Counted from the first letter of the stretch, positions 12,662 to 18,953 are shown. The stretch: 64,000 bases of DNA from an uncultured archaeon (GCA_964486045.1 CAZALK010000001.1:264142-328141), one strand, 5' to 3'. Numbers and translations are program-made. The notes: generated by a model not told the origin, from the sequence alone.

Positions 12662-13549
12662 ATGCCAAGTAGAAGAGCAGATAAAACGCTAGTCTTCAAA
12701 GTCGTTGGATATGGTCCATCCACGAGTGAAAATATTGAAGTATTTAAATGGATTCATGGGAAAAAAGGTAGTGATATAATACAAATACCTATGAGTCAAA
12801 TTATTCTACAATCTTTTGACCGCTCCTTTGCAAGAGTCTCTAACGTAATCTTTCAATTTATTAATGCTACAGGAAAGCAAAGACACCGGATCAAACCTGA
12901 AAATTTACTAAAAGGTTCTGATGTTATCATATTTATATGGGATAGTCTCATCGACCAATGGGAAGAAAATGTCGAAAGTTTAAAGGAATTATTGAGTTTT
13001 TTAGGAGAAAAATTAATACCCACAGATACTTATGAGCCAGCAGATGTAGTCATGGTAGTTCTAGCAACAAAGCGCGACCTAGAGGATATTGTAGAAATTC
13101 CAAAGATCCGAAAAGTATTGGATATTGCTCATTTAAATCACACATTGATTTATGAGACAATCGTCGATCAAGGAATTAATATAAAAAGAGCCGTTGTTTA
13201 TGCATCTCGACTAGCAGTATTGAATCAATATAGAAAATTAAGTCATGAGATAGAGCAAGTTGAAAATGCAAAGCTAGAAAAGATTAATAAAATCAAAAAG
13301 TTGGTATTAGAATTAGGAATAAAATTTACACGATTAGAAATTAAGGAAATTGGTGAAAAAAGTAGTATTGATAATGAAGATACCATAATTGAAGTAGTTA
13401 AAGATATGATTAAAAATAAAGAAATTTATGCAGAATATTTTTCAAGTTCAAAGGCGATTGCTTTCGACCAACAAGCAAATATAGAAGAGATCGATAAGTT
13501 AATGGCGACCTATAAAGAATGGGAAGAGAAAGAAGTTGGAAAAAAATAG
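12662..13549 (+). CDS. Degenerate MglA/Arf-like small GTPase fused to the PCI-like module
   Basis: FKVVGYGPSTSENIE (P-loop GKT lost); VLATKRDL (G4); shared C-terminal module. Confidence 0.75.
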   Translation: MPSRRADKTLVFKVVGYGPSTSENIEVFKWIHGKKGSDIIQIPMSQIILQSFDRSFARVSNVIFQFINATGKQRHRIKPENLLKGSDVIIFIWDSLIDQWEENVESLKELLSFLGEKLIPTDTYEPADVVMVVLATKRDLEDIVEIPKIRKVLDIAHLNHTLIYETIVDQGINIKRAVVYASRLAVLNQYRKLSHEIEQVENAKLEKINKIKKLVLELGIKFTRLEIKEIGEKSSIDNEDTIIEVVKDMIKNKEIYAEYFSSSKAIAFDQQANIEEIDKLMATYKEWEEKEVGKK

Positions 13550-14412
13550 ATACCTTTAAGATACAAAATTTAGGATTGAGAAATGTGGTTCAAAATAGAT
13601 ATACAAGATTAAAAGCAATAAAAGAGTTTGGTTATGATATTACTTGGGATGATCTTAGAAAATATCATATTGGAATTGTCGGTATTGGAGGTCTTGGTTG
13701 TGTTTCAGCTGAAATGGCAGTAAGATGTGGTATAGGGAAATTATCATTATTCGATTTCGACACCGTAGAAATTGTTAATTTAAACCGACATATGTTTAAA
13801 GAAGAACATATAGGGCAACCAAAAGTTGAAGTTGCTTTGAAGATCTTGAAAGAAATAAATCCTGATGTAGAAATAAGAAGTTTTAATAAAGATATTATGG
13901 ATCCTGACTTCGAATCTAAATTTGAATCTGAAATTAAACAGATGGATATCATTTTAAATGGATTAGATAATATTCCCGCAAGAGAATATTTAAATGCCAA
14001 GTGTGTCCTATTCAAAATTCCATTCATAGACGCAGGAGCATCTAGAAGCGGTTTATCTGGTTATATTCATCCCATCATTCCATATAAGACAGCTTGTGCT
14101 AAATGTATAAGTAGTATAGCTATAGATATCCCGGATGAAAGAGGAGAACCATGTGTAGCGTCTTTACCATCAACAATGGCAATCTTGGCAAGCGTTCAAA
14201 TTCAAGAAATGTTAAAATATCTTCTAAAGTTTGGAGAAATGATTGATTATCTCATGTATGACATGATAACGGGGAAGTTTTTGAGCTACAAAACTTTGAG
14301 AGACGATAATTGTCCTATTTGCCGTACAAAATCTCAAAATAATAAAAAATTAGTGAAGCCTAAAATTTCACGAGGAGAAATAGATGATTTAATTGATAAA
14401 CTCAAAGGATAA
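13519..14412 (+). CDS. UBA5: UBA5-like E1 activating enzyme (ThiF/MoeB family); true start probably TTG 13576 or GTG 13585
   Basis: NRYTRLKAIKEFG, GIGGLG, AEMAVRCGIGKLSLFDFDTVEIVNLNR, CAKC/CPIC zinc ligands, catalytic CVASLPSTM (UBA5 CAASLPTTM), LKYLLKFG. Confidence 0.88.
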   Translation: MGRERSWKKIDTFKIQNLGLRNVVQNRYTRLKAIKEFGYDITWDDLRKYHIGIVGIGGLGCVSAEMAVRCGIGKLSLFDFDTVEIVNLNRHMFKEEHIGQPKVEVALKILKEINPDVEIRSFNKDIMDPDFESKFESEIKQMDIILNGLDNIPAREYLNAKCVLFKIPFIDAGASRSGLSGYIHPIIPYKTACAKCISSIAIDIPDERGEPCVASLPSTMAILASVQIQEMLKYLLKFGEMIDYLMYDMITGKFLSYKTLRDDNCPICRTKSQNNKKLVKPKISRGEIDDLIDKLKG

Positions 14413-14465: not shown

Positions 14466-16001
14466 GTGGAAAAAATTGCGACTATAACCAGAAAGAATGA
14501 AAGAGAAATGGAAAAAATAAAATCTGATCAAAAGAAGGTTTTGAAGGAAATATTAGGGGAAAGATGGAAAAGTATTCCTCAAGTGAATGAAATTGAATTT
14601 CACCAATTCGGAGTTCAAATTAAGGATGGTGACATCATTGGTTTAGGATTACAGTACAAAAATTTAACGACTCTCCCGGAGTCGATAAGCAACATCTCCT
14701 CGCTCAAAACTCTAAAATTAGACTTTAATCAGTTAACGACCCTCCCGGATTCGATAGGAAACTTAAAAACACTTAAACAATTAAGTTTAGATGACAATCA
14801 GTTAACAACTCTCCCTGAGTCAATATCAAACCTAACATCACTCCAAGAATTATCTTTACTTAGTAATCAGTTAACGACCCTCCCGGCGTCGATAGGCAAC
14901 CTCTCCTCTCTCAAAATTCTATATTTAATTAATAATCAGTTAACGACTCTCCCGGAGTCAATAGGTAACCTAACATCGCTCCAATCACTATATTTGCGTG
15001 ATAATCAGTTAACGACTCTCCCGGAGTCAATAGGTAACCTAACATCGCTCCAAACACTTGGTTTGGATTTCAATCAGTTAACAACTCTCCCGGAATCAAT
15101 AGTCAACCTTCCTTCTCTCGAAGAACTATGGTTAGATGATAATCAGTTAACAACTCTCCCGGAGTCAATAGGCAAATTGAAATCGCTAAAATGGTTGGAT
15201 TTATATGATAATCAGTTAACGACTCTCCCGGAGTCCATAACAAAACTCTCCTCACTTAAAAAATTTAACTTAGGTGTTAATAAGTTAACGACTCTCCCAG
15301 AGTCAATAGTCAACCTTCCTTCTCTAAAAGAACTATGGCTAGATGATAATCAGTTAACGACTCTCCCGGAGTCAATAGATAACTTAAAATCACTTAAAAG
15401 ATTGGACTTAGAAGGTAATCCGTTAAATCAGGAATTCAAAAAAATTATTAAAATGGCTAATGGAGATATTCAACTTATTTTAAGAAAAATAAGAGAGATT
15501 TTTGAAAAAGAAAGGTTAATAGTAGAAAAAAAAGAAATGGAAAAAAGGTATAAAAGAGAGAGACCAATTATTGAAAAGTTAATTGAAGAAAAGAAATTTT
15601 CAGACGCTGTTTTGAAATTAAAAGATATTAAAAATACTGCCAAAAGATATAATTTAAGCGAAATAAATAGATGGACTATTAAAAAATTAGATTTATGTAA
15701 TCAATTGGAAAGAGAAAAGTTAAAAATAGAGAAGATTGATAGAGTTAAAAAAGCAGTATTTGACTTAGGAATAAAATTTGCCCGATTGCAAATTGCAGAA
15801 ATTTCGGAAGTATGCGATATTGATGATGTACAATTAATTGTAGACATTGTAAAAGATATGATTGATAATAAAGAAATTTATGCTCAATATTTTTCGAGCA
15901 CTAAATCTGTTGCGTTTGATCAACAAGCAAATATTGATGAGATCGATAAACTAATGAGCACCTATAAAGATTGGGAAGATAAAAAGATCGGAAAGAAATA
16001 A
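14466..16001 (+). CDS. LRR protein with C-terminal PCI-like module
   Basis: About 11 x 23-aa LxLxxNQLTTLPESIGNL repeats; shared C-terminal module. Confidence 0.9.
   Translation: MEKIATITRKNEREMEKIKSDQKKVLKEILGERWKSIPQVNEIEFHQFGVQIKDGDIIGLGLQYKNLTTLPESISNISSLKTLKLDFNQLTTLPDSIGNLKTLKQLSLDDNQLTTLPESISNLTSLQELSLLSNQLTTLPASIGNLSSLKILYLINNQLTTLPESIGNLTSLQSLYLRDNQLTTLPESIGNLTSLQTLGLDFNQLTTLPESIVNLPSLEELWLDDNQLTTLPESIGKLKSLKWLDLYDNQLTTLPESITKLSSLKKFNLGVNKLTTLPESIVNLPSLKELWLDDNQLTTLPESIDNLKSLKRLDLEGNPLNQEFKKIIKMANGDIQLILRKIREIFEKERLIVEKKEMEKRYKRERPIIEKLIEEKKFSDAVLKLKDIKNTAKRYNLSEINRWTIKKLDLCNQLEREKLKIEKIDRVKKAVFDLGIKFARLQIAEISEVCDIDDVQLIVDIVKDMIDNKEIYAQYFSSTKSVAFDQQANIDEIDKLMSTYKDWEDKKIGKK
14660..15420 (+). 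repeat. 69-bp coding tandem repeats (LRR units)
   Basis: Recurrent aatcagttaacgactctcccggagtcaatagg. Confidence 0.9.
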
Positions 16002-16091
16002 ATATTTAATAAGCAAATAAAATATTAAAAGGAACTCAAAAAATGAAGGGTGGGGTAGCATTTTGATAGAAATATTAGAGAGTAATGGAAA

Positions 16092-16841
16092 ATGAAAGTA
16101 TGGTATATATATCTAATAGGTATTACATATTTCATATTACTTGCATTTATAGTATTAACTTTTTTTGAAATCATTACATGGAACATAAATAGAAATATAC
16201 AGATGAGTTTTCCTGATCTTGGTGCACCCTCAATTATTGAATTAATTAATTATCCGATAATTTTAGAATTTTTTGGGATTTGTTTACTTATTGTTTCAGT
16301 TTTGTTTCTATTTAAACTGAGATTTATAAAATCTTTTCTTTTTGGGGTAATAGGTTATTACTCCGCTATCATTCCTTTTTCCATTATTAATCAAATCTTA
16401 CTGGAAAAAAGAGATTTATTTGGTAGTGGTGAATTTCAAGTATCATATGACGAGTATAATTCGTATAATTCGAATGGTGTGCAAATTTTAAATATTGTGT
16501 TGTTAGTAAATATATTTTTGTTAACTATTTTTTGCTTAAACCTAATATTCTTAAAATTTTTTAAAAACCTAAAGAAAAAAATGAAAATTAAAAGAACCAT
16601 ACTAGATTTAGGAACACAATACACTCGATTACAAATCAGGGAGATAGCACAAACATGTAAATATGATAGAAGCACCATTATTTTTGTTGTGAAAGAAATG
16701 ATTGTCAACAGAGAAATTTATGGGCAATATTTTAGAAGTTCAGGATTTGTAGTATTTAATCAAAAAGTCAATATTGAAGAAATTGATAAATTGATGGCAA
16801 CTTATAAAGAATGGGAAGAGAAGGAAGATGGAAAGAAATAA
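16092..16841 (+). CDS. Multi-pass membrane protein with C-terminal PCI-like module
   Basis: About 4 hydrophobic helices, then ILDLGTQYTRLQIREIA...EIDKLMATYKEWEE. Confidence 0.85.
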   Translation: MKVWYIYLIGITYFILLAFIVLTFFEIITWNINRNIQMSFPDLGAPSIIELINYPIILEFFGICLLIVSVLFLFKLRFIKSFLFGVIGYYSAIIPFSIINQILLEKRDLFGSGEFQVSYDEYNSYNSNGVQILNIVLLVNIFLLTIFCLNLIFLKFFKNLKKKMKIKRTILDLGTQYTRLQIREIAQTCKYDRSTIIFVVKEMIVNREIYGQYFRSSGFVVFNQKVNIEEIDKLMATYKEWEEKEDGKK

Positions 16842-16897
16842 TATTTTCATATAAATAAAATCCTAATAGAACCTAAAAAACGGAAAGGTGAAAATCT

Positions 16898-18109
16898 ATA
16901 GAAATTTTCCATATATCTGAAACATTCATTAAGATAATAAAAAACCAAGCTTTATCCAGTGAAAATGAGATATATGGGTGGTTAATCGGGTATCAAAAAG
17001 ATAAAATCCCTAAAGTTTTAACGATTATTGAATGCAAGCGATTCGAACAACAAACCCCTATAAGTGCTGTTCCATATGCCCAAGAATTTCAAGAAATAAG
17101 TTCTATTATGCCCCAAGGGATTGGTCCTATTGGTATATATCATTCTCATCCTTTTTCAAGTGAAATTTTTCATAGTCATACTGACGACGCAACTCTCTTA
17201 AGCTTAAGTAATCAATTTCCTCATTGCATATCTATTGTTACAAACGGAGAAGAAATAAATTTTTACCAAATGGGCAAAAAAAGTAAAACTGAAGAAATTC
17301 AAGCTGAATTTATTGATCCTGACATTCTAAAGTTCTTATTAATTTATTTTGATGAAGATTTACTTCTAATAATAAATAATTATATTCTTAATAGTAGAGT
17401 ATCTGAAAATTCATTAAAAATAATGATTTTAAACAAACTTAGAGACTTATTGGAAGAAATCTGGATTGATTTTGAATTTCTCTATAATAATTCCAAAATC
17501 TCTAAGAATGATTCAATTAATCCATATCTAGTAGATAAATTAACAGTTGAGCCCATTCACTTAATTTTACCAGAAAAATTTAAGGATGGAAATAAAATAA
17601 AATTAATAATTGATAGCATTAATGAATCCGACGAATCTAAAATTGAAAATAATCAGACTTGTTTTAACTTAAATATTAAAGCAAAAATTCCAATTTACAT
17701 GACTGATGAAAATGTTACTTTTCAAAAGATAAATCAAGCAATTAAAACAGAATTAATAAGTAATAACATACTTCAAAAGATTTATAATTGTGTTATCGAT
17801 TATGATAAGAAATTAATTATTACTCCAGATGATTACTATCTTAATTTTTTCGGATTTTATATAAGATTTTTATTTTTTAATATACATGAGTTAAATAAAA
17901 ATGAATTATCCCAAAAAACTTACGAAGTATTGTTAAAATTAATTTCCTTATTTGAAAATGTTAAAAATATAAAATCAAATGACAAAATCAGAAATCAGAT
18001 TTTCATGTTTATTAAAGACCTCAAAAAATTTTCTAAAAAATTTAGATGGCAAAATCAAGTCAAAAATAGGATAGAAAATTTAAAAAAAAATATAAAACAA
18101 CATTTTTAA
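16898..18109 (+). CDS. JAB/MPN+ metalloprotease (putative deconjugase) with C-terminal extension; extends about 70 codons upstream of the called ATG at 17108
   Basis: Frame is open from 16892: IEIFHISETFIKIIKNQALSSENEIYGWLIG (catalytic Glu) ... GIYHSHPFSSEIFHSHTD (JAMM motif). Start is ATA 16898 behind an AGGTGA SD, or GTG 16888 with a 1-nt slip. Confidence 0.85.
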   Translation: MEIFHISETFIKIIKNQALSSENEIYGWLIGYQKDKIPKVLTIIECKRFEQQTPISAVPYAQEFQEISSIMPQGIGPIGIYHSHPFSSEIFHSHTDDATLLSLSNQFPHCISIVTNGEEINFYQMGKKSKTEEIQAEFIDPDILKFLLIYFDEDLLLIINNYILNSRVSENSLKIMILNKLRDLLEEIWIDFEFLYNNSKISKNDSINPYLVDKLTVEPIHLILPEKFKDGNKIKLIIDSINESDESKIENNQTCFNLNIKAKIPIYMTDENVTFQKINQAIKTELISNNILQKIYNCVIDYDKKLIITPDDYYLNFFGFYIRFLFFNIHELNKNELSQKTYEVLLKLISLFENVKNIKSNDKIRNQIFMFIKDLKKFSKKFRWQNQVKNRIENLKKNIKQHF

Positions 18110-18147
18110 TATTTATTTAAGGCAAAACTACAAAGGTTATAGATAAA

Positions 18148-18414
18148 ATGACATTAGAATTAAATACCATATATTTTGTTAACAAATTTGGCTCAGAAAA
18201 AAAGCAAATCCCTTTTCCAATTGCTCCAAATATAAAATTGATGGATGTTATACCAGAAATTTCAAAAAAATTTGGAATATCGTCACAGAATATATGTATA
18301 GCTAATATGGGTGGACAAGTTTTAACTTCTACAGATTTACTGAGCTCTGTTCGAGAATTAGTAGAAAAATTTGGAAACACATTTGATATTATAGATCGAG
18401 GTATTGTTGGTTGA
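18148..18414 (+). CDS. UFM1: UFM1-like ubiquitin-fold modifier
   Basis: 88 aa with a beta-grasp pattern; ends KFGNTFDIIDRGIVG (mature UFM1 KHGSELRIIPRDRVG), single Gly after Val; stop overlaps the E2 start. Confidence 0.82.
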   Translation: MTLELNTIYFVNKFGSEKKQIPFPIAPNIKLMDVIPEISKKFGISSQNICIANMGGQVLTSTDLLSSVRELVEKFGNTFDIIDRGIVG

Positions 18415-18953
18415 GTATTACTAATAACCGCTGGCAGAGATCAATTCTTGACGAGATTATCCAAGAATTTCCGGAAAAATGGAGTTCTATTGGCCCAAAA
18501 CACCCTGCTTGGAAGGATCGTGTTAAATTAGAGATCGAAAAAATTATGCAATACATCAATTTTCTAAGATCTACAAAAAATAGACCTTGGTTTAAATTAT
18601 ATCCTGAAAAAAATCCTCGCTATAATTATTTAGTATGGACAGGAAATTTACTCGTTCCCGAATATCCAGAAATTAATTTTGTTATTAAAGTACTCTTAAC
18701 TTCTGAATATCCAAGAGTATGCCCCCGATGTTTTGCTGAAGAAAAAATTGTGGAGTATTGTGGAAAAATCTTTTTGAAAAATATCTGGGAACAAGAAGGT
18801 AAGAAATATGTAATGATATGCCATGAACACATGTCAAATACTCACGCATGGAAAGAGAATCTTGGAATTGCTCACTTTTTTATACGACAAGTCTGGGTGT
18901 GGTGGGCTGCCCAACAAAATGTGATTATTAAAGAATATGATAAGAAAAAGTAA
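18411..18953 (+). CDS. UFC1: UFC1-like E2 conjugating enzyme
   Basis: GPKHPAWKDRVKLEIEKIMQYI / PWFKL / WTG / YPRVCP / ICHEH / LGIAHF..W align with UFC1 [23 protein letters not shown] / DWFRL / WFG / YPTTAP / ICLTDH / FGLAHL..W. Confidence 0.9.
   Translation: MSITNNRWQRSILDEIIQEFPEKWSSIGPKHPAWKDRVKLEIEKIMQYINFLRSTKNRPWFKLYPEKNPRYNYLVWTGNLLVPEYPEINFVIKVLLTSEYPRVCPRCFAEEKIVEYCGKIFLKNIWEQEGKKYVMICHEHMSNTHAWKENLGIAHFFIRQVWVWWAAQQNVIIKEYDKKK

What the first reader, a model, noticed from the sequence alone, without database searches (positions are those of the whole stretch)
16898..18414. A JAMM metalloprotease, not a UFSP cysteine protease, sits next to a pre-matured UFM1
Seen: a JAB gene with the catalytic Glu and HSH..S..D lies directly upstream of the modifier. 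The modifier already ends in Gly, so it needs no maturation, and no C78/UFSP-like gene is visible in the window. Known: eukaryotic UFSP2 has an N-terminal MPN-like domain, and its partner ODR4 is also MPN-like. Inference: the JAB is the deconjugase and may be the active ancestor of those inactive MPN domains.
Basis: partly seen in the sequence, partly recalled or inferred. Interest (0 to 1): 0.72.

Follow-up and report, generated by a model that had tools for sequence, protein, structure and literature searches.

The report
Archaeal metalloprotease on a UFSP2-like scaffold
In an Asgard archaeon, the protease of a UFM1-type protein-tagging gene set is a zinc (JAMM) enzyme whose predicted two-domain structure matches the non-catalytic part of the animal UFM1 protease UFSP2, which suggests that the eukaryotic enzyme kept an old metalloprotease scaffold and replaced its catalytic part.

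Summary
Window 16898-18109 encodes a 403-aa protein with an intact JAMM site: Glu24, His82-x-His84, Ser93 and Asp96, invariant in 24 homologues. It lies 38 nt upstream of an 88-aa modifier that ends ...GIVG-stop. No C78/UFSP peptidase was found in this 99%-complete genome or in 400 genomes of the phylum.

The system is UFM1-type. The E1's best solved relatives are UBA5, and the E2 profile hits only UFC1.

E1-JAMM-modifier-E2 is a conserved cassette in about 30 Asgard loci, and the JAMM and E2 genes co-occur in 32 genomes.

In 11 of 25 relatives the modifier is fused in frame to the E2 or carries a short tail. A protease that cuts after the final Gly is therefore needed there, and the JAMM is the only protease in the cassette.

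A complex model puts the modifier's tail in the zinc site, held by both domains (0.93 against 0.00 for controls).

No sequence-level link to UFSP2 or ODR4 was found, and no activity has been tested.

The gene starts at a conserved non-AUG codon (ATA), so database entries are truncated.

The scan noted this same stretch before, in overlapping windows of the same genome, not on other DNA.

The parts
16886..16891 (+). AGGTGA Shine-Dalgarno-like signal, 6 nt upstream of the ATA start. Its TGA is an in-frame stop.
   Evidence: Sequence read. GGTGA (GGTGG in two loci) lies 5-6 nt before the inferred start codon, which in three loci is one or two codons past the aligned position, in 16 of 19 loci of the full-length family, window included; three with ATG lack it.
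16898..18109 (+). JAMM-NTD protease gene, 403 aa, with a non-canonical ATA start. Gene callers start at ATG 17108 and lose Glu24.
   Evidence: 333-aa truncated entries are seen.
16898..17308 (+). JAMM/MPN+ catalytic domain, residues 1-137. Glu24 is at 16967-16969 and HSH...S..D at 17141-17185.
17324..18040 (+). UFSP2-NTD-like domain, residues 143-381. The conserved polar residues Asn179, Tyr267, Glu285 and Asn289 lie on the predicted modifier-binding face.
18148..18414 (+). 88-aa ubiquitin-like modifier ending ...GIVG-stop, encoded already mature. UFM1-like by context and tail.
   Evidence: Pfam Ufm1 matches only 2 of 24 members, at E 0.034.
18411..18953 (+). UFC1-like E2, 180 aa, with invariant Cys137. 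Its TTG start overlaps the modifier's stop.
   Evidence: The profile hits only UFC1 chains in the PDB, E 2.4e-6. Pfam UFC1 E 1.6e-4, below the cut-off.
13519..14412 (+). UBA5-like E1. In most relatives it sits directly upstream of the JAMM gene; here two adaptor genes (14466-16001 and 16092-16841) separate them.
   Evidence: Best PDB matches are UBA5, E 2.3e-47, against MoeB 2.3e-31. Synteny.

Best explanation
The gene encodes the dedicated zinc metalloprotease of an Asgard UFM1-type conjugation cassette (UBA5-like E1, JAMM, modifier, UFC1-like E2). It cuts the peptide or isopeptide bond after the modifier's terminal Val-Gly.

In relatives whose modifier is made as a modifier-E2 fusion or with a short tail, this cut is the maturation step. 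In this genome the modifier is encoded mature, so the enzyme's job is deconjugation, that is recycling from targets and probably from the E2.

The modifier is gripped by two domains. The JAMM domain takes the C-terminal tail into the Glu24/His82/His84/Asp96 zinc site. A second domain contacts the body of the modifier through a conserved polar face (Asn179, Tyr267, Glu285, Asn289). This second domain has the fold of the non-catalytic N-terminal domain of eukaryotic UFSP2.

The MPN + NTD two-domain scaffold is the one found in nematode UfSP and, split over two chains, in the mammalian ODR4-UFSP2 pair. There the MPN part is catalytically dead and an added C78 cysteine-protease domain does the cutting.

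Shown here: motif, fold, synteny, co-occurrence, precursor forms in relatives. Inferred: activity, specificity, common descent with UFSP2/ODR4.
For: The catalytic motif is intact and invariant in 24 homologues.

The E1-JAMM-modifier-E2 order is kept in about 30 loci from several Asgard families. The JAMM was found in 36 of 400 phylum genomes and the E2 in 36 of 400, with 32 shared. Most mismatches are contig ends or pseudogene scraps, one is a paralogous fusion.

The modifier is fused in frame to the E2 in 8 loci and carries a 2-3 residue tail in 3 loci, out of 25. Fused genes are also called in public records. The JAMM is the only protease in the cassette.

No C78 peptidase was found in the own genome or in 400 phylum genomes.

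The system is UFM1-type: the E1 is nearest UBA5 and the E2 profile hits only UFC1.

Complex model of JAMM + Zn + modifier: score 0.93 in three runs, best of 3 controls 0.00. That mark was reached by 58 of 80 solved complexes and 2 of 110 mismatched pairs. The runs agree in at least 96% of contacts and the partner's pLDDT is at least 87. Modifier residues 82-88 touch Glu24, His82, His84, Ser93 and Asp96.

Predicted interface residues are more conserved than the rest: p 6.6e-5 in the JAMM domain and p 4.9e-4 in the C-terminal domain.
Against: No biochemical data exist.

I did not fold the modifier on its own, and it is not recognised as UFM1 by sequence. Its profile finds no UFM1 in the PDB, and Pfam Ufm1 reaches only E 0.034 for 2 of 24 members.

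The link to UFSP2 is structural only. Identity is 7-11%. Pfam UfSP2_N and ODR4-like find nothing. A profile of the C-terminal domain finds only 42 clusters in 1.84 billion proteins, with the ~130-aa JAB domain confirmed in 8 of 10 that I checked and none eukaryote-like.

The complex pass may lean on solved JAMM-Ubl complexes (6fnn, 5lda, 8tyy). My own alignments and a zinc ion were used, so the calibration holds only roughly.

The start codon is non-canonical, and translation of the Glu24-bearing N-terminus is inferred, not shown.
Confidence: 0.75

Rival explanations
1. It is an ordinary archaeal Rpn11/JAMM1-type Ubl protease with a lineage-specific C-terminal domain. The resemblance of that domain, and of the two-domain arrangement, to UFSP2/UfSP is fold-level convergence and says nothing about the origin of the eukaryotic enzyme.
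Confidence: 0.2
2. The MPN+ protein is the catalytic subunit of a lid/CSN/eIF3-like assembly with the many PCI/winged-helix proteins of this locus, joined through its C-terminal helices. Its link to the modifier is secondary.
Against: In about 30 loci the constant neighbours are the E1, modifier and E2. PCI-tail genes lie within 1.5 kb in only three loci. The C-terminal domain matches the UFSP2 NTD rather than Rpn11/CSN5 tails. The two readings do not exclude each other, since Rpn11 and CSN5 are isopeptidases too.
Confidence: 0.1
3. The cassette is an anti-virus defence module of the bacterial Bil/Bub or CBASS Cap2-Cap3 kind, and the JAMM is its regulator that strips the modifier from host proteins.
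Against: PADLOC gives only generic JAB (E 9e-4) and E1 domain hits, and no system model. The E1 and E2 are nearest UBA5 and UFC1, not Cap2 or Bil enzymes. No phage genes were seen nearby in the ORF list.
Confidence: 0.08
4. It is a sulfur-carrier type system (MoaD/ThiS/CysO with a Mec+-like JAMM), in which the JAMM releases a product from the carrier's C-terminus.
For: The E1 also matches MoeB/ThiF models. JAMM enzymes serve such carriers in some bacteria (my own knowledge).
Against: A conserved E2 with an invariant Cys is part of the cassette. No rhodanese or biosynthetic genes are in the cassette. The E1 scores 16 orders of magnitude better against UBA5 than against MoeB.
Confidence: 0.03

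Closest known systems
C. elegans UfSP (ODR-8; PDB 5EJJ, 5XDA), and the mammalian UFSP2 (PDB 3OQC) with its partner ODR4
   Different: The eukaryotic MPN parts lack the catalytic residues (stated for ODR4 in PMC10952357), and cleavage is done by a C-terminal C78 cysteine-protease domain. That domain is absent here and in 400 Asgard genomes. Here the JAMM site is intact. No sequence similarity is detectable. There is no membrane partner.
CsRpn11 of Caldiarchaeum subterraneum (PDB 6FJV, 6FNN; PMC6043591)
   Different: CsRpn11 is a single-domain enzyme of about 150-230 aa. Its system is ubiquitin-type, with a Gly-Gly tail, a canonical UBC E2 and a RING E3 (my own knowledge). It has no UFSP2-NTD-like domain.
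PfJAMM1 / HvJAMM1 desampylases (PDB 5LD9, 5LDA)
   Different: SAMP systems have no E2 (my own knowledge). The enzyme is about 130 aa without an accessory domain. The NCBIfam desampylase model scores only 16.9 bits against a cut-off of 130.
Bacterial Bil/Bub JAB deubiquitinases and CBASS Cap3 (PDB 8TYY, 9EA5, 9ILD)
   Different: These are defence systems with other E1/E2 families. There is no PADLOC system match and no NTD-like domain.

Membership tests
JAMM/MPN+ metalloproteases (Prok-JAB PF14464) | MPN fold | tested here: met
JAMM/MPN+ metalloproteases (Prok-JAB PF14464) | Catalytic motif E...HxH-x7-S-x2-D | tested here: met
   Glu24, His82, His84, Ser93 and Asp96 are invariant in 24 sequences. 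The spacer is x8 rather than x7.
JAMM/MPN+ metalloproteases (Prok-JAB PF14464) | Zinc-dependent cleavage after the Ubl C-terminal Gly | not testable with these tools
   Only a complex model: score 0.93, best control 0.00, with the tail in the site.
UFSP / Peptidase C78 (PF07910) | Papain-like Cys-Asp-His catalytic domain | tested here: not met
   No PF07910 match in the protein, the genome or 400 phylum genomes. No invariant Cys or His in residues 138-403.
UFSP2 non-catalytic N-terminal domain (UfSP2_N PF20908) | Sequence match to the family profile | tested here: not met
   No hit at E<=1 in the genome. None of 27 C-terminal domains hits it at E<=10.
UFSP2 non-catalytic N-terminal domain (UfSP2_N PF20908) | Fold of mouse UfSP2 residues 1-239 / cUfSP 133-350 | tested here: met
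MPN + NTD scaffold of nematode UfSP | Both domains in the same order and mutual arrangement | tested here: met
ODR4-like (PF14778) | Sequence match to the family profile. The family's membrane anchor was not examined. | tested here: not met
   No hit in the own genome, though the control genomes did not ring either. I made no fold comparison, because no ODR4 structure turned up among the PDB hits.
UFM1-type conjugation system | UBA5-type E1 | tested here: met
   The top five PDB matches are UBA5, E 2.3e-47, against MoeB 2.3e-31.
UFM1-type conjugation system | UFC1-type E2 | tested here: met
   The profile hits 26 UFC1 sequences and no UBC E2, E 2.4e-6. A single-sequence Pfam UFC1 scan gives 21.8 bits, below the 25-bit cut-off.
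UFM1-type conjugation system | Modifier of the UFM1 family | tested here: inconclusive
   No UFM1 hit with the profile in the PDB. Pfam Ufm1 matches 2 of 24 members at E 0.034. The atlas gives only ubiquitin-like leads. The tail ends in a single Gly preceded by Val. Ufm1 homologues in Asgard are reported in PMC12962969.

The most novel reading that the evidence does not exclude
The Asgard JAMM-NTD enzyme represents the original deUFMylase. At the origin of eukaryotes a C78 cysteine-protease domain was added to this scaffold, the zinc site then decayed, and in most lineages the dead MPN part split off as ODR4. The puzzling MPN pseudoenzyme and the 'novel' N-terminal domain of UFSP2 would then be relics of an archaeal metalloprotease. 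By analogy with UFSP2's NTD, which recruits it to DDRGK1/UFBP1 (as cited in PMC10952357), the archaeal domain may also dock on the DDRGK1-like winged-helix adaptors encoded around it.
Probability: 0.4. Interest if true: 0.88.

Novelty: new variant of a known kind. Interest (0 to 1): 0.78.

Why it matters
Published surveys held UFM1, UFC1 and UFSP2 to be eukaryote-only (PMC10183829). Ufm1 homologues in Asgard archaea were reported in 2026, without gene context (PMC12962969).

This locus adds the missing removal and maturation enzyme, and it is of a different catalytic class from the eukaryotic one. At the same time it carries the same non-catalytic scaffold. That offers a concrete and testable origin for two unexplained features of the eukaryotic pathway, the MPN pseudoenzyme ODR4 and the UFSP2 N-terminal domain. 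It would be a clear case of a catalytic domain being replaced on a conserved recognition scaffold.

The work also supplies ready substrates for biochemistry, namely the natural modifier-E2 fusions. And it flags a systematic annotation error: a non-AUG start makes database entries lack the catalytic Glu.

Tried and rejected
I took gene context from genome-search loci instead.
- Single-sequence PDB searches of the modifier and the E2 gave nothing. The modifier profile gave no UFM1.
- The ESM Atlas held no model of the modifier and gave only weak ubiquitin/Rad60-SLD leads.
- NCBIfam gave only a far sub-threshold desampylase hit.
- The profile of the C-terminal domain against 1.84 billion proteins found 42 clusters of at most 491 aa, with the domain after a ~130-aa N-terminal part or in fragments (JAB confirmed in 8 of 10 checked). 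There was no eukaryote-like protein, no C78 fusion and no E1 fusion.
- Pfam ODR4-like and UfSP2_N gave no hits.
- PADLOC matched no defence system model.
- No RNA holder was listed among the public runs. I did not lay reads, because only contigs were on offer and contigs cannot show starts.
- A fold search of the whole model within Foldseek's own ranking was swamped by JAMM chains, so I folded the C-terminal domain separately.
- I considered and set aside read-through of the in-frame TGA to give an E1-JAMM fusion. In this window no E1 lies upstream and a further stop lies five codons before. In at least one relative (L015) the E1 and JAMM hits lie in different frames (coordinates), and no long fused form is on record.
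- I set aside GTG 16888 as the start because it is out of frame.

Full report
**Organism and locus.** The window has about 29% G+C. It lies in a 5.18-Mb genome of 45 contigs, 99% complete. Homologues of its proteins carry names such as Promethearchaeota, Lokiarchaeota, Hermodarchaeota and Odinarchaeota, so this is an Asgard archaeon of the Loki type.

On the + strand the region 10-22 kb holds these genes:
- a ThiF-type E1 (13519-14412);
- an LRR protein and a membrane protein, both ending in a PCI-like winged helix (14466-16001 and 16092-16841);
- the JAB gene (16898-18109);
- an 88-aa modifier (18148-18414);
- a 180-aa E2-like gene (18411-18953);
- further winged-helix proteins.

**The observation.** One open frame runs from 16892 to the stop at 18107-18109.
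- Residues 10-123 match Prok-JAB at E 6.6e-8, above the cut-off.
- The nearest solved sequence is the Rpn11 homologue of Caldiarchaeum, E 0.003.
- In an alignment of 24 homologues, Glu24, His82, Ser83, His84, Ser93 and Asp96 are invariant.
- The motif is HxH-x8-S-x2-D, one residue longer than the textbook spacer.
- The modifier ends ...RGIVG, followed at once by TGA. The TGA overlaps the TTG start of the E2.
- No Peptidase_C78 match exists at E<=1 in the genome or at E<=0.001 in 400 genomes of the phylum. No control genome could ring for this eukaryotic family, so the second result is weaker than it looks.

**The start codon.** The frame has no ATG, GTG or TTG between the stop at 16889-16891 and ATG 17108. 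A start at 17108 would delete Glu24. That is what the gene callers did: many database entries are 333 aa.

It aligns with Met1 of orthologues that do have ATG.

Across the 19 loci of the full-length family (window included), the inferred start is ATA in seven, ATC in four, ATT in two, GTA in one and ATG in five (in L022, L024 and L027 it lies one or two codons downstream of the aligned position). In 16 of the 19 it lies 5-6 nt downstream of GGTGA (GGTGG in two); three of the five ATG loci lack that signal.

In this window AGGTGA-N6-ATA is kept even though the E1, which normally ends there, has been moved away by two inserted genes. I read this as Shine-Dalgarno-directed initiation at a near-cognate AUH codon, which would give weak translation of the protease. 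That is an inference; no expression data were available.

**The system is UFM1-type.**
- The E1's best solved relatives are UBA5, at E 2.3e-47, against 2.3e-31 for MoeB.
- A profile of 23 E2 orthologues hits 26 UFC1 sequences and no canonical UBC E2, best E 2.4e-6. The single sequence covers the Pfam UFC1 model almost end to end, but at 21.8 bits, under the 25-bit cut-off.
- The modifier is not recognised as UFM1 by sequence. Its UFM1 assignment rests on its partners, on the single-Gly Val-Gly tail, and on the published report of Ufm1 homologues in nine Asgard clades (PMC12962969). That paper gives no gene context.

**Conservation of the cassette.** A profile of the protease found it in 36 of 400 phylum genomes and in 21 of 85 genera. 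The full-length form occurs only in the own family, in 18 of 134 genomes, and in 4 of 53 genomes of the own genus.

In most of the 30 fetched loci the order is E1, JAMM, modifier, E2; in several loci of other families (L030-L032, L034, L036) the same genes lie in other orders or on both strands, and some loci are cut by contig ends.

The E2 profile also found 36 of 400 genomes, and 32 are the same genomes. The mismatches are:
- four JAMM loci cut by contig ends;
- one E2 locus cut before the JAMM (L042);
- two E2 pseudogene scraps;
- one paralogous E2 domain inside an 897-aa frame without a modifier (L041).

Within the family the modifier is 56-97% identical to the window's copy, the E2 57-91% and the E1 63-81%. 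The protease is only 37-63% identical.

**Precursor forms in relatives.** I could read the modifier's C-terminus in 25 loci.
- 14 stop right after Gly, as in the window.
- 8 continue in frame into the E2. One of these runs off its contig.
- 3 carry two or three extra residues.

Fused genes of 269-270 aa are also called in public records.

In those genomes a cut after Val-Gly is needed before the E1 can activate the modifier, and the JAMM is the only protease of the cassette. This parallels CsRpn11, which matures its ubiquitin precursor and also deconjugates it (PMC6043591). So 'needs no maturation' is local to this genome. Here the enzyme's remaining task is deconjugation.

**Structure.** The full-length model has pLDDT 88.6 and pTM 0.86.
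- Foldseek also returned C. elegans UfSP over 369-379 columns, E about 1e-6.
- I therefore folded residues 135-403 alone; that model has pLDDT 87.8.
- Its only Foldseek hits with E below 1 are mouse UfSP2 (3oqc, E 6.7e-4 and 2.4e-3, prob 0.99-1.00) and C. elegans UfSP (E 0.009-0.16). The next hit has E 1.4, and UfSP1, which lacks the N-terminal domain, is absent.
- Against 48,161 representative chains, nothing else aligns the alpha/beta part. Higher-ranked rows cover only the terminal three-helix bundle.

According to the literature, ODR4 is an MPN pseudoenzyme and human UFSP2 is NTD + catalytic domain, with the NTD binding ODR4. The C. elegans enzyme has MPN, NTD and catalytic domain in one chain (PMC9638016, PMC10952357). 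The archaeal protein therefore has the architecture of nematode UfSP minus the cysteine-protease domain, and with a live zinc site.

**Limits of the scaffold claim.**
- Identity in the structural alignments is 7-11%.
- Pfam UfSP2_N and ODR4-like find nothing in the genome or in 27 C-terminal domains.
- A profile of the C-terminal domain, which included divergent Asgard families (alignment A5), finds only 42 clusters in 1.84 billion proteins. In the full-length ones the domain follows a ~130-aa N-terminal part (JAB confirmed in 8 of 10 checked), and none is longer than 491 aa.
- Common descent is therefore inferred from fold, domain order, arrangement and pathway context, not from sequence. I put it at about two in three.

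**Predicted complex.** I folded the protease (alignment A1), a zinc ion and the modifier (alignment A2).
- The score was 0.93 in three runs, and the best of 3 controls scored 0.00. That mark was reached by 58 of 80 solved complexes and by 2 of 110 mismatched pairs.
- The runs agree in at least 96% of contacts, and the partner's pLDDT is at least 87.
- Modifier residues 82-88 touch Glu24, His82, His84, Ser93 and Asp96. Modifier residues 11-20 and 72-78 touch residues 172-186 and 267-297 of the second domain.
- JAMM-Ubl complexes have been solved, so part of this pass may reflect likeness to them. My own alignments and a riding zinc also depart from the calibration.
- As a separate check, predicted interface residues are more conserved than the rest in both domains (p 6.6e-5 and 4.9e-4). 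The invariant or near-invariant polar residues of the second domain, Asn179, Tyr267, Glu285 and Asn289, sit at the interface. The other top-conserved positions are mostly core-type residues. The sequences are related, so these p-values overstate.

**Rival readings.**
- A lid/CSN-like PCI-MPN assembly is possible as an add-on. But the constant neighbours of the gene are the E1, modifier and E2, not PCI proteins.
- A defence module fits the patchy spread, but it has no PADLOC support, and the E1 and E2 are nearest UBA5 and UFC1.
- A sulfur-carrier system does not fit a cassette with a conserved E2.
- The main open alternative is that the protease role is right but the UFSP2 resemblance is convergent.

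**Literature.** Full-text searches of the library found no paper that links a JAMM enzyme or UFC1 with Asgard UFM1. One survey of Asgard ubiquitin gene clusters counted JAB-type deubiquitinases and UFL1-like E3s generically (PMC9192718).

**Verdict.** This is a real gene whose function can be inferred. It is a new variant of the known archaeal JAMM Ubl-proteases, and it is notable for serving a UFM1-type cascade and for carrying the UFSP2 scaffold.

Noticed in passing
window 16886-16900; loci L012-L027: The JAMM gene starts at ATA, ATC or ATT (once GTA), 5-6 nt after a conserved GGTGA, in most members of the family. Gene callers therefore begin at an internal ATG, and database entries of 333 aa lack the catalytic Glu. 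This looks like a deliberately weak start for the protease.
   Followed up: partly
L013, L014, L016, L021, L027, L028, L030 (and L029); proteins P0171, P0179: The modifier and the UFC1-like E2 are encoded as one in-frame fusion in about a third of related loci. Three further loci (L023, L031, L036) have 2-3 residue tails after Val-Gly.
   Followed up: yes
window 14466-16841: Two genes, one for an LRR protein and one for a multi-pass membrane protein, both ending in the locus-wide PCI-like winged helix plus tail, are inserted between the E1 and the JAMM. These two are adjacent in nearly all relatives. The JAMM's ribosome-binding signal survived the insertion.
   Followed up: partly
L022:2995-3116: A 61-nt tandem duplication spans the modifier's end and the E2's start. 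It creates a 14-codon mini-ORF that repeats the modifier's tail. It may be a trace of switching between the fused and split forms, or an assembly artefact.
   Followed up: partly
L041:2334-5024 (-), genome G153: A UFC1-like E2 domain, 52% identical to the window's, sits in the C-terminal part of an open frame of at least 897 aa. The N-terminal part of that frame has a GAGIS motif reminiscent of SIR2-type domains. No modifier or JAMM lies nearby on the contig.
   Followed up: no
genomes G260 (C2:54876-55049) and G276 (C9:110239-110421): These hold only C-terminal scraps of the E2 gene, with internal stop codons. The remnants suggest recent loss of the cassette, in line with its patchy spread.
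   Followed up: no
L012 (genome G241): This genome holds two copies of the cassette. In one copy the JAMM frame carries an in-frame TAG, and a winged-helix adaptor gene lies between the JAMM and the modifier.
   Followed up: no
window 23654-25078 (-): Two small Ras/Rab-like GTPase genes lie just downstream of the cluster on the opposite strand. A pseudo-GTPase (Arf-like, E 2.7e-4) is fused to a winged helix at 12662-13549.
   Followed up: no
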